Assembly: GCA_002269645.1 (NCBI GenBank) | Contig: NIVC01005162.1 | Location: 1-24,177, forward strand | Source: Macrostomum lignano | Taxonomy: Eukaryota | DNA: 24,177 bases | Direction: 5' to 3' | In this document: positions 7,274 through 17,796 of the stretch, piece by piece | Layout of the letters: each line of letters starts with the position of its first letter | Position numbering within the stretch: the stretch's first letter is position 1 | Made by a program: the position numbers and the translations under genes | Notes under the pieces: model-generated | What the model saw: the letters and a program-made list of their open reading frames with translations, nothing else | Databases searched by the model: none | Told to the model about the DNA's origin: nothing

Positions 7274-7932
7274 ACTACTAAGGGATTCCGTATGGCGCGA
7301 TTTTGCGAAGGTCCGTCGGGCTGATGTCGGCCTCTAGCACCGCGGCAAGGTGCTCCCTCGGGGTGTACCACCTCCCCCGGGGTGTACCTCCAGCGGGGTG
7401 GGTGTCCAGCGAGTGTACCTCCAGCGGGGTGGGCCTCCCGCGAGTGTACATCCGGCCGGCTGGGCGTCCAGCGAGTGTACCTTCAGCGCATGGGCCTCCC
7501 TCGGGGTGTACATCCGGCGGGGGGATTCCCGCCCCTCCCACCAATGTCGTGTGCACGCGGTTAGTGTAGGAAGGAAACCCCCGATGCTGACGCAGCCCTG
7601 TACACTGAGCAACCGGCCCCCCATGCGGGGGACAGAGAGCAGCCCCTGTAGCAGGAGGGGTAGTGCGTGGAGAGCCGCCATCCCCCTGTAGCAAGGGACA
7701 GATAACAGGCGGCCCCCTGTAGCAGTATGAGGTGGGGTACAAAGAGACACGGGGTGCTGGGACAGAGAGTGCGTGGAGGCACCCTGCGCTGCCCTGGCAT
7801 GTCGCAGCACGCGGCGTGGACAGAGAGGGAGTGTGAGTCACACGGAGGGACAGAGAGCTTCCCCAGGCCGGGGTGGTAGAGGGACAGACCGGCGGTGAGT
7901 GATAGAGAGCTCCCCCCAGGCTGCAGAGGGAC
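7274..7932 (+). repeat. Left terminal inverted repeat
   Basis: Begins ACTACTAAGGG. It is the reverse complement of 17126..17796 apart from a few blocks. GC-rich, with internal 31-bp repeats. Confidence 0.93.
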
Positions 7933-7995
7933 AGACAGGCCGCGAGCAACGTGTTAATGCAACCATAAATAGAAGCAGTGTACAAAACCCTCTGT

Positions 7996-8775
7996 ATGGA
8001 GAACATGGAAGAGGGTATAACTGATAACCCCTATTTCAGCAACGAGAGCGTGCGCGCCAGATTACCCCTCATTGAAAGATTGTTATCAGACACTAGGAAA
8101 AGAATCGAGGGATTGACCGCAAAGGAGCGCTTAGAATTCACGTATCTAGCCCGGCTGGCATTCGTAACTGAAGTAAACATTGAGGAGAGAGAGGTGGCGT
8201 TGACTTGGGAGGAAGCAGAAGAAGCGATAAAAACCCGGTCCTGTATGGTCACAGCCAATCTATGGAGTGCGGCAATACACCTCAATGACACGAGGGGGTT
8301 AATTGACACAGAGTTTGTTAGACAAGTTCACACACGCGTGTGCAGAGGACTGCTCCCGAATGCAGGATCGTATAGAATTAAGCACGCCAAGCCAGCAGGC
8401 GCGAGTATGTATTACAGTGCCCCAGAAAATATTGAACGGCAGCTGGTAAAATTAACTAGAGACATAAAAGAGCCACAAATCTTGCGTGATGCAGTAGTGA
8501 CAGGAGCATATTTCCTAGAAAAGTTTCTCACCATACACCCCTTTAGCGACGGCAATGGTAGAACTGCTAGGTTGTTATTATCAAAGTTGATCAACCGGAT
8601 TCTGCCAGAACCCGTATCATTTGCGTATGCAAATAGAGACACATATCTCAACTGTCTTTACGAAGCGCGCAGCAGCAACCGGGGGCTCCTAGCGGCGTAT
8701 TTACTTTTATCAATTGAGAGAACTGTTCTACAGTGGAGGGAATGGTTGGAAATCTGTTCAGACGGCAGCCTATAA
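7996..8775 (+). CDS. Fic-domain protein (putative AMPylase)
   Basis: Canonical Fic motif HPFSDGNGRTAR, a flap region (GSYRIKHAKPAG...Y) and the typical C-terminal RDTYLNCL. First ATG at 7996, with CATAAATA about 30 nt upstream. Confidence 0.9.
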   Translation: MENMEEGITDNPYFSNESVRARLPLIERLLSDTRKRIEGLTAKERLEFTYLARLAFVTEVNIEEREVALTWEEAEEAIKTRSCMVTANLWSAAIHLNDTRGLIDTEFVRQVHTRVCRGLLPNAGSYRIKHAKPAGASMYYSAPENIERQLVKLTRDIKEPQILRDAVVTGAYFLEKFLTIHPFSDGNGRTARLLLSKLINRILPEPVSFAYANRDTYLNCLYEARSSNRGLLAAYLLLSIERTVLQWREWLEICSDGSL

Positions 8776-8809
8776 ATAAATAAAATTGGTATTTCTCAAC
8801 AATATCGAA

Positions 8810-9163
8810 ATGTACTGGCAATCGGAAATAGTGTACACCCACGTTGACAACGCAGTGCTGGAAGTGGGATATTGGGACCCAAACAAACCGCGTTTCCGCA
8901 TCCACTGTCAAAACTGTAGCTGTCCAGGAGCCGTGTTTAGTCGAGCACAATGGCATCGAATGAAATTTCTGGGCACTAGCTGCACAGATTACGATCTCGG
9001 AGGCGGCGCATCTATCAAAGTTATCGACGGGAAGCGCCTGTACGTAAAAGGAGACTGCGAATTTCACCTGTCAGACAAAATACTTTGTGCAGTTGAAAAG
9101 AATAGAGTCGACAATTTCTTCCACTATTTCTTTCTCGACGAATCTGACGAGTCAGAGGAATGA
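8810..9163 (+). CDS. Hypothetical protein, possibly tandem PC4-like ssDNA-binding fold
   Basis: Open frame after TATAAATA (8771). GAVFSRAQWHRM resembles the PC4 GisL...QW..L motif, and YDLGGGASIKV resembles a second PC4 start. Acidic C-terminus. The fold call is weak. Confidence 0.55.
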   Translation: MYWQSEIVYTHVDNAVLEVGYWDPNKPRFRIHCQNCSCPGAVFSRAQWHRMKFLGTSCTDYDLGGGASIKVIDGKRLYVKGDCEFHLSDKILCAVEKNRVDNFFHYFFLDESDESEE

Positions 9164-9540
9164 GCTGGATTTCTCGAGACTACCCGCTTTTATCGAGCAA
9201 AGAAAGGGCAGAGTACGAGACCCTGAAAAAGTCCACAGACTGGTTATGCATTTGTCACGGCAAACCAATTCCCGAACGATTAGTCACCTTTAATGTCGAG
9301 GTAGACGAAATTGGGCAAGGGCCTTACAGCACCCAAGAATATACAGATGCCCGAATTGACTACTACTTTAGAGACAAGATGCATTTCAAAGCCAATCTTC
9401 AAAGAATGGAGCAGATAATTGCCCCAATATTACAAGAGGATCATCGTGAGAAAATACGGTACCGGAATCACCAGCCGATTGCTCCCTCGTGGACGAACAC
9501 CAAAGGATTTGGCGACCTAAACACAGTAGACCAGTGCTAG
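9160..9540 (+). CDS. Hypothetical protein (orphan)
   Basis: 126-aa ORF with an ATGA start/stop overlap with the upstream ORF, co-oriented with all element genes. Confidence 0.6.
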   Translation: MSWISRDYPLLSSKERAEYETLKKSTDWLCICHGKPIPERLVTFNVEVDEIGQGPYSTQEYTDARIDYYFRDKMHFKANLQRMEQIIAPILQEDHREKIRYRNHQPIAPSWTNTKGFGDLNTVDQC

Positions 9541-15949: not shown

Positions 15950-16382
15950 ACACGTTGGAAATTTTGGAACGTTTAAAACTACCTGTGGAAGTGCGCGTTT
16001 GCCCTCTTGACAGAATTCCTGCACCTGTTTACCCTGCTGCATATGTAATTAATTTTGACACGGGTAATCTGCCAGGCACCCACTGGGGACTGATTTGCCT
16101 ACACGATGATAAGAGTGTGACATTTTTTGACCCCTGTGTATTGAACCCGTGCCGGAATTGCTCTCGGCTTGGATCTCGAAGCATGTACATTCACCTGTTG
16201 CTATGAATCGCCACCCTGTTCAACACCCTCTAAGTGTAGCGTGTGGGCCGCATGTGATTTTTGTGGCCGAAAAGCACTTTTTAGAGGGGTTGTCGATTGA
16301 AAAGATTTTAAGGGAATGTTACTCTACCAATCTGCTTGAAAATGATTTGATGGTTCGAAAACATGTTCTACAAATAAAATAG
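15946..16382 (+). CDS. Adenain-like cysteine (maturation) protease, one frameshift near 16136
   Basis: YVINFD...PGTHW (His), FFDP (Asp) and VQHPLSVACG (Gln, Cys). Adding one G restores FFDPCGIEPVPELL. ATGA overlap with the MCP stop. Confidence 0.88.
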
Positions 16383-16416
16383 TTTTTAATATTTGGAGTG
16401 TCAACTCGCCCTGAAA

Positions 16417-17046
16417 ATGTACCAAACAATTGATCCTGACGCTCTAAAGTTTGCTCCAAATACTTCGGCGATTTTTGCTGGTGTTAACCAGAGCGGAAAA
16501 ACAACTCTTGTTAAAGAATTGCTGCGAAACGAGTTTTTTCAGGACCCTAAGCCTGTTCGCGTTGATTGGTTTGGGCACTATCCAGACCCGGAACTGTTTG
16601 AATTACCGTACCCTGTCAATTTTCGCTCGTCTACATTTAACCCTGAAACCTATGTTCCCGCTCCGAATATTCTACTCGTTGTCGATGATCAAATGCAAGC
16701 CATGGAAAAAAACGCTGCTTTTACCGCATTTTTCACTCGCAAAGTCAGCCATGTGGGATTCCGGCTTTGGTACCTTGTACAAAACCTGTTTGCCAAGGGC
16801 AAGGAGCACCGCACTCAATCCCTTAACGCAAACTACCTTGTATTGTTCCGCAATGTACGGGACGTTAGTACAGTCGCCCATATTGCAAAGCAGCTTGTCC
16901 CCGCTAACCCAAAAAGTTTTGTTCAAATGTACGAAGACGCCACTAGGGAGCCCTACTCCTACTTGATTGTTAATTGCTTGCAGAACGCATCTGTTCGCTA
17001 CTATGCTAATGTGTTGGGGCGCTACCCCGTAGTCTATGCTAAATAA
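16417..17046 (+). CDS. FtsK/HerA (A32-like) genome-packaging ATPase
   Basis: Walker A GVNQSGKT, Walker B LLVVDD, then FTRKVSH...LVQNLF, RTQSLNANYLVLFRNVRD and YEDATREPYSYL. Intact, with AATAAA at the stop. Confidence 0.93.
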   Translation: MYQTIDPDALKFAPNTSAIFAGVNQSGKTTLVKELLRNEFFQDPKPVRVDWFGHYPDPELFELPYPVNFRSSTFNPETYVPAPNILLVVDDQMQAMEKNAAFTAFFTRKVSHVGFRLWYLVQNLFAKGKEHRTQSLNANYLVLFRNVRDVSTVAHIAKQLVPANPKSFVQMYEDATREPYSYLIVNCLQNASVRYYANVLGRYPVVYAK

Positions 17047-17125
17047 AACACTGTTGGAGAGCTTTGCTCTGTTTGCCGGATGGCCTGAACCTGAAACAAC
17101 TAAAATACGTGTTTTTTCTTTTCAA

Positions 17126-17796
17126 GTCCTCTGCAGCCTGGGGAGCTCTCTATCACTCACCGCCGGTCTGTCCCACGCCTCCAGACTGGGCCGCTCTCTC
17201 CGCGGGGGGTGTGATTCATACTGCCTCTCTGTCCACGCCGCGTGCTGCGACATGCCAGGGCAGCGCAGGGTGCCTCCACGCACTCTCTGTCCCAGCACCC
17301 CGTGTCTCTTTGTACCCCACCTCATACTGCTACAGGGGGCCGCCTGTTATCTGTCCCTTGCTACAGGGGGATGGCGGCTCTCCACGCACTACCCCTCCTG
17401 CTACAGGGGCTGCTCTCTGTCCCCAGCTACAGGGCTGCTCTCTGTCCCCCGCATGGGGGGCCGGTTGCTCAGTGTACAGGGCTGCGTCAGCATCGGGGGT
17501 TTCCTTCCTACACTAACCGCGTGCACACGACATTGGTGGGAGGGGCGGGAATCCCCCCGCCGGATGTACACCCGAGGGAGGCCCATGCGCTGAAGGTACA
17601 CTCGCTGGACGCCCACCCTGCCGGATGTACACTCGCAGGAGGCCCACCCCGCTGGAGGTACACTCGCTGGACGCCCACCCCGCTGGAGGTACACCCCGGG
17701 TGTACACCCCGAGGGAGCACCTTGCCGCGGTGCTAGAGGCCGACATCAGCCCGACGGACCTTCGCAAAATCAACGGATCTGCCGGCCCTTAGTAGT
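17126..17796 (-). repeat. Right terminal inverted repeat
   Basis: Ends CCCTTAGTAGT and is the reverse complement of the left TIR. Confidence 0.93.

What the first reader, a model, noticed from the sequence alone, without database searches (positions are those of the whole stretch)
7274..17796. Compact capsid-complete Maverick/adintovirus-like element with no DNA polymerase
Seen in sequence: between the two TIRs every stretch is filled by co-oriented ORFs (integrase, MCP, mCP, protease, ATPase and accessory genes). There is no room for a ~1000-aa pPolB, and no helicase or primase motif is visible. Established knowledge: pPolB is a defining Maverick/Polinton gene and full elements are usually 15-20 kb. 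Inference: this is either a satellite-like virus that packages and integrates itself but borrows a polymerase in trans, one segment of a multipartite virus, or a lineage using host replication. The tight gene packing (ATGA overlaps, shared junction motifs) looks organised rather than like a deletion scar.
Basis: partly seen in the sequence, partly recalled or inferred. Interest (0 to 1): 0.88.

Follow-up and report, generated by a model that had tools for sequence, protein, structure and literature searches.

The report
Polymerase-less Maverick element in animal genome
This is a 10.5-kb virus-like Maverick element that keeps its capsid, packaging and integration genes but has no DNA polymerase, so it is most likely a damaged, helper-dependent offshoot of an ordinary Maverick family, whose one unusual feature is its own TATA-binding-like protein.

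Summary
The missing polymerase is real. Between ~660-nt TIRs (7274-17796) 14 genes on the + strand leave no gap over 225 nt, and polymerases from related loci (both Maverick types) find nothing in the window. "Capsid-complete" holds for gene content only: as assembled, the capsid gene has 3 frame switches, the protease 1 and the SSB 1, and there is no target-site duplication. The SSB, the trinucleotide-repeat termini and the lack of terminal hairpins point to protein-primed replication with polymerase and terminal protein supplied in trans, not host replication. Adding one polymerase gene (~3.8 kb) gives a normal-sized Maverick, and polB-less, TIR-flanked polintons with polB-bearing siblings are reported in a preprint. 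A 97%-identical second copy and six ATPase relatives at 81-84% exist, but whether they carry a polymerase could not be seen. Best reading: a deletion derivative or non-autonomous copy (0.65). A stable satellite or bipartite lineage is not excluded (0.17).

The parts
7274..17796 (+). Whole TIR-bounded element, 10,523 nt; no pPolB, helicase or primase; no TSD
7274..7929 (.). Left TIR, starts ACTACT; contains 31-nt tandem repeats
17128..17796 (.). Right TIR, ends AGTAGT; differs from the left by 4 mismatches and a few indels in the core, by a 14-nt subterminal segment and by a diverged inner ~50 nt
7996..8775 (+). Fic-domain protein, 259 aa, open; accessory (AMPylase-type by family)
   Evidence: Pfam Fic E 7e-14; NCBIfam Fic families below cut-off
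8810..9163 (+). ORF2, 117 aa, unknown; also present in sibling copy P0036
   Evidence: no family hit
9160..9540 (+). ORF3, 126 aa, unknown; ATGA overlap with ORF2
   Evidence: only a sub-threshold DUF5646 hit
9766..10445 (+). T7 gp2.5-like ssDNA-binding protein with basic tail; frame switch near 10224-10236 in this copy
   Evidence: relatives P0036, P0037, P0039; low-confidence model of P0037 (pLDDT 45.5) matches gp2.5/Enc34/DUF2815 SSBs in the top 9 Foldseek rows (E 1.4e-3 to 2e-2) and VIA-align Z 7.6-7.9
10366..10845 (+). Divergent TATA-binding-protein homologue; no in-frame ATG near its start in this copy
   Evidence: Pfam TBP E 9.5e-5; relatives 63-64%; Foldseek best E 7e-8, all listed rows at E<=0.001 are TBP-containing entries, 16-22% identity
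10884..11273 (+). Conserved Maverick ORF, PM-like by position, 129 aa
   Evidence: homologues after the ATPase in L001, L004, L005, L008; name by position from PMC8097293 section 7
11276..11857 (+). Conserved Maverick ORF, PZ-like by position, 193 aa
   Evidence: homologues in L004, L005, L008, E about 1e-4 to 3e-5
11932..12210 (+). Small ORF, 92 aa, overlapping the integrase start; TATAAATA 43 nt upstream
12029..13108 (+). rve integrase, 359 aa, open
   Evidence: Pfam rve E 2.1e-9; 33% to L009 integrase, E 1e-42
13112..14251 (+). Minor capsid protein (by position and homology), 379 aa, open
   Evidence: homology to L008 ORFs, E 1e-14
14295..14639 (+). Small basic ORF, PW/core-like by position, 114 aa
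   Evidence: weak match in L008 between mCP and MCP, E 0.003
14669..15949 (+). Major capsid protein (PY-type by homology), in four segments: frame switches near 14860-14872, 15516-15543 and 15611-15662
   Evidence: tblastn of intact L006 ORF, E 1e-31; L008
15946..16382 (+). Adenain-like cysteine protease, in two frames (switch near 16131)
   Evidence: first part matches L006 ORF, E 2.8e-6; second part only weakly (E 0.25); label partly from recalled motifs
16417..17046 (+). A32/FtsK-type packaging ATPase, 209 aa, open; ends 81 nt from the right TIR
   Evidence: 32 homologues, many carrying PF04665; Walker A
8771..14619 (+). Seven TATAAATA boxes (8771, 10858, 11147, 11889, 13078, 14247, 14612); six lie 26-57 nt upstream of an ATG

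Best explanation
A polymerase-less derivative of an otherwise ordinary, divergent animal Maverick/adintovirus family. Shown: it keeps eight conserved Maverick genes (ATPase, PM-, PZ-, PW-like, integrase, minor and major capsid, protease), an SSB, a TBP-like gene, Fic and long TIRs, and has no pPolB. Inferred: pPolB, and with it the terminal protein that is part of the same polypeptide, was lost as a whole gene. The site is not determined; next to the right TIR or in the accessory region are both possible. Inferred mechanism: if it ever replicated after the loss, an intact family member with matching TIR ends supplied pPolB and terminal protein, primed at the trinucleotide-repeat termini, while the element's own SSB, integrase and virion genes could contribute, like a defective or non-autonomous genome. 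As assembled, this copy can no longer make virions. Rough split: a one-off loss at or before this insertion about 0.4, a propagated non-autonomous subfamily about 0.25.
For: Element plus one polymerase ORF (3,752-3,831 nt in L005, L006, L009) is about 14.3 kb, inside the 12.7-24.6 kb range of intact vertebrate Mavericks (PMC8097293 section 7). 4 of 9 loci with related ATPases carry a pPolB (L001, L005, L006, L009), and their gene blocks recur here: PM-PZ-INT-mCP-PW-MCP as in L008, MCP-PRO-ATPase as in pPolB-bearing L006. Viral-type SSB; SSDBP labels occur on PolB-bearing adintovirus maps (PMC8502044 Fig. S2 text labels). Termini are a repeated trinucleotide as in Mavericks, no terminal hairpin (z -0.45 to 0.40). 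Terminal protein is part of pPolB (PMC11161782 passages). Precedent: polB-less, TIR-flanked polintons that apparently stayed mobile, with polB kept in close siblings (10.1101/2025.02.07.637071 section 13). 96% of vertebrate Maverick loci are degraded (PMC8097293 passage). This copy has 5 frame switches and no TSD.
Against: No pPolB-bearing member of this clade was found: the six close ATPase relatives lie on contigs of 501-3,773 nt and a search for longer fused forms found none among 1,403 candidates (weak). No polymerase remnant marks a breakpoint. The polymerase-bearing loci are distant (ATPase 28-40%), so they say little about this clade. The TIR cores differ at only 4 positions in about 530 nt and a 97%-identical second copy exists, so the family was active recently, which suits a propagating polymerase-less form equally well. 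The breaks may be assembly errors; the homopolymer test was inconclusive.
Confidence: 0.65

Rival explanations
1. A stable polymerase-less lineage: the whole clade is a satellite-like or bipartite Maverick that packages and integrates itself and gets pPolB and terminal protein from a second TIR-bounded segment or an unrelated helper, perhaps using its TBP-like protein to drive its TATAAATA promoters.
For: No trace of pPolB; compact one-strand layout with a shared promoter motif; distinct ATPase clade, 100/100 support, branch length 1.64; TBP-like and SSB genes conserved in relatives at 40-64%; second near-identical copy.
Against: Nothing shows that any other copy lacks pPolB. The motif also occurs in polymerase-bearing loci. 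This copy is broken and lacks a TSD. The last 112 aa of the sibling model P0036 match nothing in the window, so that copy may be truncated or hold extra DNA. No bipartite polinton appeared in the 20 listed titles of search.
Confidence: 0.17
2. Chimera or assembly artefact: the two halves come from different copies, joined by ectopic recombination or by a misassembly among near-identical repeats, dropping the polymerase.
For: No TSD; the TIRs differ in a 14-nt subterminal segment, a 25-nt duplication and a diverged inner stretch; several 1-2 nt indels; the family has near-identical copies.
Against: TIR cores are almost identical; gene order is coherent with related loci; no N, duplicated internal block or composition step inside the element.
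Confidence: 0.14
3. A lineage replicated by host enzymes, with no viral polymerase needed.
For: No viral replication enzyme found; a group of protist-type PLVs of 15-20 kb without detectable replication genes is reported (10.64898/2026.06.19.733378 passage); carries a factor for host Pol II-type promoters.
Against: Keeps a phage-type SSB and Maverick-type repeated-trinucleotide termini; no terminal hairpin; no helicase, Rep nuclease or origin-binding candidate, although ORF2, ORF3 and the small ORF are unassigned.
Confidence: 0.04

Closest known systems
Animal Mavericks/Polintons (Polintoviricetes; adintoviruses of PMC8502044)
   Same: Long TIRs, repeated-trinucleotide termini, rve integrase, packaging ATPase, protease, major and minor capsid, PM/PZ/PW-like ORFs, one-strand layout as in Xenopus; SSDBP is labelled on Hydra and Stylophora maps.
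   Different: No pPolB; 10.5 kb (below the 12.7 kb minimum of intact vertebrate elements); termini are (ACT)2//(AGT)2, not one of the three vertebrate motifs listed; no TSD; ATPase moved behind the protease; TBP-like and Fic genes.
polB-lacking polintons of Lepidoptera (Pannagram preprint 10.1101/2025.02.07.637071, section 13)
   Same: TIR-flanked, canonical polinton genes kept, polB missing, mobilisation unexplained.
   Different: Those carry a LINE or an LTR element coinciding with the loss, and polB-bearing siblings are shown; here there is no cargo element and sibling content is unknown.
Tlr1 and polinton-like viruses without pPolB (PMC11161782, PMC8502044 section 3.4, 10.64898/2026.06.19.733378)
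   Same: Capsid module, sometimes rve integrase, no pPolB.
   Different: They mostly encode a substitute helicase or replicase and live in protists; this element has none, and its genes match animal Maverick-type loci.
Viral TBP-like factors (NCLDV TBPs; herpesvirus BcRF1/UL87)
   Same: Same fold: BFVD matches to NCLDV TBPs (best named E 2.7e-7) and BcRF1 (E 3e-3). A TBP label is in the Fig. 5 legend of PMC8502044.
   Different: Here it sits in a 10-kb animal Maverick-type element; TATAAATA is a canonical TATA box (established knowledge), so a private recognition role is not required and not shown.

Membership tests
Maverick/Polinton (autonomous) | [quoted passage not shown] | tested here: not met
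   No room; no Pfam hit; no hit with both polymerase types by tblastn or profile
Maverick/Polinton (autonomous) | Retrovirus-like rve integrase | tested here: met
   Pfam rve E 2.1e-9, open frame of 359 aa
Maverick/Polinton (autonomous) | Long terminal inverted repeats | tested here: met
   656/669 nt, 617 matches in 689 columns
Maverick/Polinton (autonomous) | Short repeated end motif | tested here: inconclusive
   (ACT)2//(AGT)2: same type as, but not identical to, the three motifs in PMC8097293
Maverick/Polinton (autonomous) | 5-8 bp target-site duplication | tested here: not met
   No shared 4-8-mer within 15 nt of the ends
Maverick/Polinton (autonomous) | A32/FtsK packaging ATPase | tested here: met
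Maverick/Polinton (autonomous) | Double jelly-roll major and single jelly-roll minor capsid proteins | tested here: inconclusive
   Homologous ORFs in the expected position; no family or PDB-sequence hit; fold not predicted; MCP broken here
Maverick/Polinton (autonomous) | Adenain-like protease | tested here: inconclusive
   Matches the ORF between MCP and ATPase in L006; no family hit; split in two frames
Non-autonomous (pPolB-less) polinton subfamily | Several independent insertions that share the same loss of pPolB | not testable with these tools
   Host assembly not available; sibling P0036 gives no context
Non-autonomous (pPolB-less) polinton subfamily | A pPolB-bearing partner with the same TIR | not testable with these tools
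   Close relatives only on contigs under 4 kb; viral and metagenome contig collections closed
Tlr1 / PLV with substitute replicase | SF1/SF3 helicase, AEP or PolA in place of pPolB | tested here: not met
   No Pfam hit in 146 frames; one Walker A only; longest frame 380 aa
Satellite or multipartite virus | Particles or free linear DNA that depend on a helper or second segment | not testable with these tools
   Needs reads, virome or bench data

The most novel reading that the evidence does not exclude
The whole clade (six ATPase relatives at 81-84%) is a stable polymerase-less animal Maverick, a satellite or one half of a bipartite virus, that keeps its own capsid, integrase, SSB and a TBP-like late transcription factor for its TATAAATA promoters and recruits pPolB and terminal protein from a partner with matching ends.
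Probability: 0.17. Interest if true: 0.8.

Novelty: new variant of a known kind. Interest (0 to 1): 0.4.

Why it matters
If it is only a deleted, decaying copy, it is one more defective Maverick, but from an undescribed divergent family (ATPase 45% or less to anything outside its clade) that pairs a TBP-like gene with a uniform TATA box before six of its genes, a testable lead on how these elements run their transcription. If the loss is shared by many insertions, it would be a clean case of trans-complemented Maverick replication, which one preprint raises as an open question. If the whole clade lacks pPolB, it would be a satellite or bipartite form of animal Maverick, which I did not find described in the nine literature searches run (listings only, subscription papers not covered).

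Tried and rejected
Polymerase remnants: Pfam, PHROGs, NCBIfam, tblastn and an own profile gave none. A motif regex found none either but also missed L009 and L001, so it is weak. Exact look-up of 10 open ORFs: 0 of 10 in the collection. Longer or fused ATPase forms: none among 1,403 candidates (weak). Cluster membership of the close relatives could not be looked up, so their records and contexts stay unknown. ESM Atlas on the SSB ORF and on P0037: no usable hit. P0040 and P0041 dropped as chance: no tblastn match to the window, P0040 is a fibronectin-repeat protein. The C-terminal 112 aa of P0036 match neither the window (best E 0.098) nor the nine loci. Terminal hairpins: none above shuffles. 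Flank-to-flank similarity that would mark an interrupted repeat: only an 11-nt chance match. Whether breaks sit in homopolymers: runs of 4,3,3,4,6 against a background of 81% of windows with 3 or more and 35% with 4 or more, inconclusive. A suspected extra break pair in the minor capsid gene could not be shown. A reverse-strand TTTATT at 9621 as the trace of a lost opposite-strand gene: 2 such hexamers in the element, rejected as chance. LxCxE oncoid motifs: none in five accessory ORFs. Of the nine GTDB loci, L002 and L004 are too short to judge, L003 and L007 match only the ATPase, and L008 has the core genes with no detectable pPolB in 20 kb but is fragmented and shows no TIR, so it was not counted as a second example. 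The ATPase tree left out P0006 and P0028 (under 140 aa) and the L004 and L008 ATPases, and flags long-branch joins, so the clade's sister group is not claimed. Preprint supplements and the slide files of PMC8502044 could not be read and may hold polB-less or TBP-bearing maps.
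Full report
Observation. The element runs 7274-17796. Its TIRs (7274-7929, 17128-17796) align with 617 matches, 19 mismatches and 53 gap columns in 689 columns; the core 7299-7828 has only 4 mismatches plus indels of 1, 6 and 25 nt. Ends are ACTACT...AGTAGT. No 4-8-mer is shared within 15 nt outside the two ends, so there is no TSD. Fourteen genes lie on the + strand, covering 8,400 of 9,198 interior nt on provisional coordinates; the largest gap is 225 nt and the longest stop-free frame 380 aa. 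The flanks hold host genes: a ribosomal L14 family ORF and protein-kinase exons. An animal host is my inference from the element type, not a result.

Absence of a polymerase. Pfam found no polymerase, helicase or primase in 146 six-frame segments of 35 aa or more. Pfam also missed two divergent polymerases in related loci, so I used real ones. An ATPase alignment fetched 9 loci from GTDB contigs. L005 has a PF03175 polymerase; L006 and L009 share a second type (25% over 814 aa; motifs B and C in L006); L001 has a fragment. Against the window, three of them gave best tblastn E 0.68 and a profile gave best E 0.68 over 1,012 segments, while the profile found L001 at E 1.1e-6. Five polymerase ORFs gave nothing at E 0.1. 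The absence is solid.

Gene identities. Fic (Pfam E 7e-14) and rve integrase (E 2.1e-9) are direct hits. The ATPase has 32 homologues among 181 candidates, six at 81-84% and the rest at 33-45%; the five close ones long enough to include form a clade with it at 100/100 in a 38-row tree that left out P0006, P0028, L004 and L008. PM-, PZ- and PW-like ORFs, minor and major capsid and protease match ORFs of L001, L004, L005, L006 and L008; their names come from position as described in PMC8097293 section 7 and from recalled motifs, with no family, PDB-sequence or fold confirmation. The order PM-PZ-INT-mCP-PW-MCP is that of L008; MCP-PRO-ATPase is that of L006, where a polymerase follows downstream. 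In the window the right TIR begins 81 nt after the ATPase.

Two genes not named in the finding. ORF 9766-10445 has relatives at 97, 56, 60 and 40%. A low-confidence model of relative P0037 (pLDDT 45.5) matches T7 gp2.5, Enc34 and DUF2815 SSBs in the top nine Foldseek rows (E 1.4e-3 to 2e-2, none under 1e-3) and in the top three VIA-align rows (Z 7.9, 7.9, 7.6; rmsd 4.6-4.9 over 123-131 residues). The tool warns that Z under 8 can be unspecific, but both programs agree on one family. ORF 10366-10845 is a TBP homologue: Pfam E 9.5e-5, 2 relatives among 24 candidates at 63-64%, Foldseek best E 7e-8 with 44 matches at E 0.001 or better and every listed one a TBP-containing entry. TATAAATA occurs 7 times on the element's + strand and never on its - strand; 8 in the window against 0.77 expected. 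Six lie 26-57 nt before an ATG; of 14 starts examined, 6 have an exact box within 80 nt, 2 a one-mismatch box and 6 none better than two mismatches. The same motif sits at junctions of polymerase-bearing L006 and L009, so it is a family trait, not a sign of adaptation to life without a polymerase.

State of this copy. The capsid gene matches the intact L006 ORF in four segments, the protease lies in two frames, the SSB switches frame near 10224-10236, and the TBP-like gene has no in-frame ATG near its start. Integrase, ATPase, Fic and minor capsid frames are open. Whether the breaks are decay or assembly error is unresolved.

Other copies. P0036 is a spliced-looking 435-aa model that strings together a left-TIR frame, the end of ORF2, the SSB and its tail at 83-97% identity, with a 38-aa duplication absent here. 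It shows a second, near-identical copy with the same left-end order. Its last 112 aa match nothing in the window, so that copy is truncated, holds extra DNA, or the model jumps into host sequence. All close relatives with contig data lie on contigs under 4 kb. Nothing seen here says whether any sibling has a polymerase; this is the decisive gap.

Mechanism. In polintons the terminal protein is the N-terminal domain of pPolB (PMC11161782 passages), so both are missing. The termini are a repeated trinucleotide like those of vertebrate Mavericks, though the mirror of the commonest motif; they form no hairpin. SSDBP is labelled on PolB-bearing adintovirus maps. I infer protein-primed strand-displacement replication that needs pPolB in trans. 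One polymerase ORF is 3,752-3,831 nt; added to 10,523 nt it gives about 14.3 kb, within the 12.7-24.6 kb of intact vertebrate elements. Loss of one gene from a normal family member is therefore the most economical account (0.65). A stable satellite or bipartite clade (0.17), a chimera or misassembly (0.14; no TSD, unequal TIR segments) and host replication (0.04) are the rivals.

Comparison with the literature. The Pannagram preprint reports two groups of TIR-flanked polintons lacking polB, apparently still mobile, with polB retained in close siblings of the first group (section 13 read; passages). PMC8097293 finds 96% of vertebrate loci degraded (passages and section 7). PMC8502044 says a great majority, not all, of large adenain-bearing animal contigs carry PolB, and lists TBP in the Fig. 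5 legend (sections 7, 8, 10 read; passages; supplement searched and part 1 of 400 read). A PLV group without detectable replication genes is noted in 10.64898/2026.06.19.733378 (passages). Passages only, adding no polymerase-less capsid-bearing animal case: 10.64898/2026.10.13.758929, 10.1101/2023.08.22.554363, PMC11131425, PMC6431247, 10.1101/2024.01.15.575659, PMC3014272, PMC4028283. Search listings; none of the listed titles describes a bipartite or satellite animal Maverick or a TBP in an animal Maverick, but subscription papers are not covered.

Verdict. It works like a non-autonomous Maverick; it fails strict membership (no pPolB, no TSD). The divergent family with a TBP-like gene, uniform TATA boxes and an SSB, and the open question of whether the loss is family-wide, keep it at 0.40; a single BLAST against the host assembly would settle most of it.

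Noticed in passing
window 7285-7298 vs 17772-17785: A 14-nt segment just inside the identical 11-nt termini differs between the two TIRs, followed by 70 identical nt; unexplained.
   Followed up: partly
window 7375-7520 and 17555-17696: 31-nt tandem repeats (3.5-4.5 copies) inside both TIRs, possible binding sites.
   Followed up: no
window 10366-10445: The TBP-like frame overlaps the basic tail of the SSB gene by about 80 nt.
   Followed up: partly
P0036: The sibling gene model carries a 38-aa tandem duplication inside the SSB and 112 C-terminal residues with no match in the window.
   Followed up: partly
window 3952-4371 (-): Host ribosomal protein L14 family frame, Pfam E 5.2e-11; probably mitochondrial L14 (recalled).
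   Followed up: no
window 19847-20626 and 23845-24114 (-): Host protein-kinase exons; Pkinase E 1.3e-12 for the second; DYRK-like with a Gln/Ala-rich tail (label recalled).
   Followed up: no
window 2165-2224 (+): Partial tRNA match in Rfam (31.5 bits), not called by ARAGORN; possibly a tRNA-derived repeat.
   Followed up: no
window 3714-3846, 4382-4847, 17990-18172, 23005-23862: Host tandem arrays of 21, 34, 32 and 20 nt; the 32-nt array starts about 190 nt right of the element.
   Followed up: no
L003 3176-3784 and 7929-8537: A perfect 609-nt inverted repeat encloses a 5.4-kb stretch holding a Maverick-type ATPase, the only gene there matching the window.
   Followed up: no
L008 9574-15600: Fragmented Maverick core (ATPase, PM, PZ, INT, mCP, PW, MCP) with no detectable pPolB in 20 kb and no TIR.
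   Followed up: partly
L001-L009: Nine contigs in bacterial MAGs of GTDB encode Maverick-type ATPases, four with pPolB; probably eukaryotic or viral DNA binned with the bacteria (inference).
   Followed up: partly
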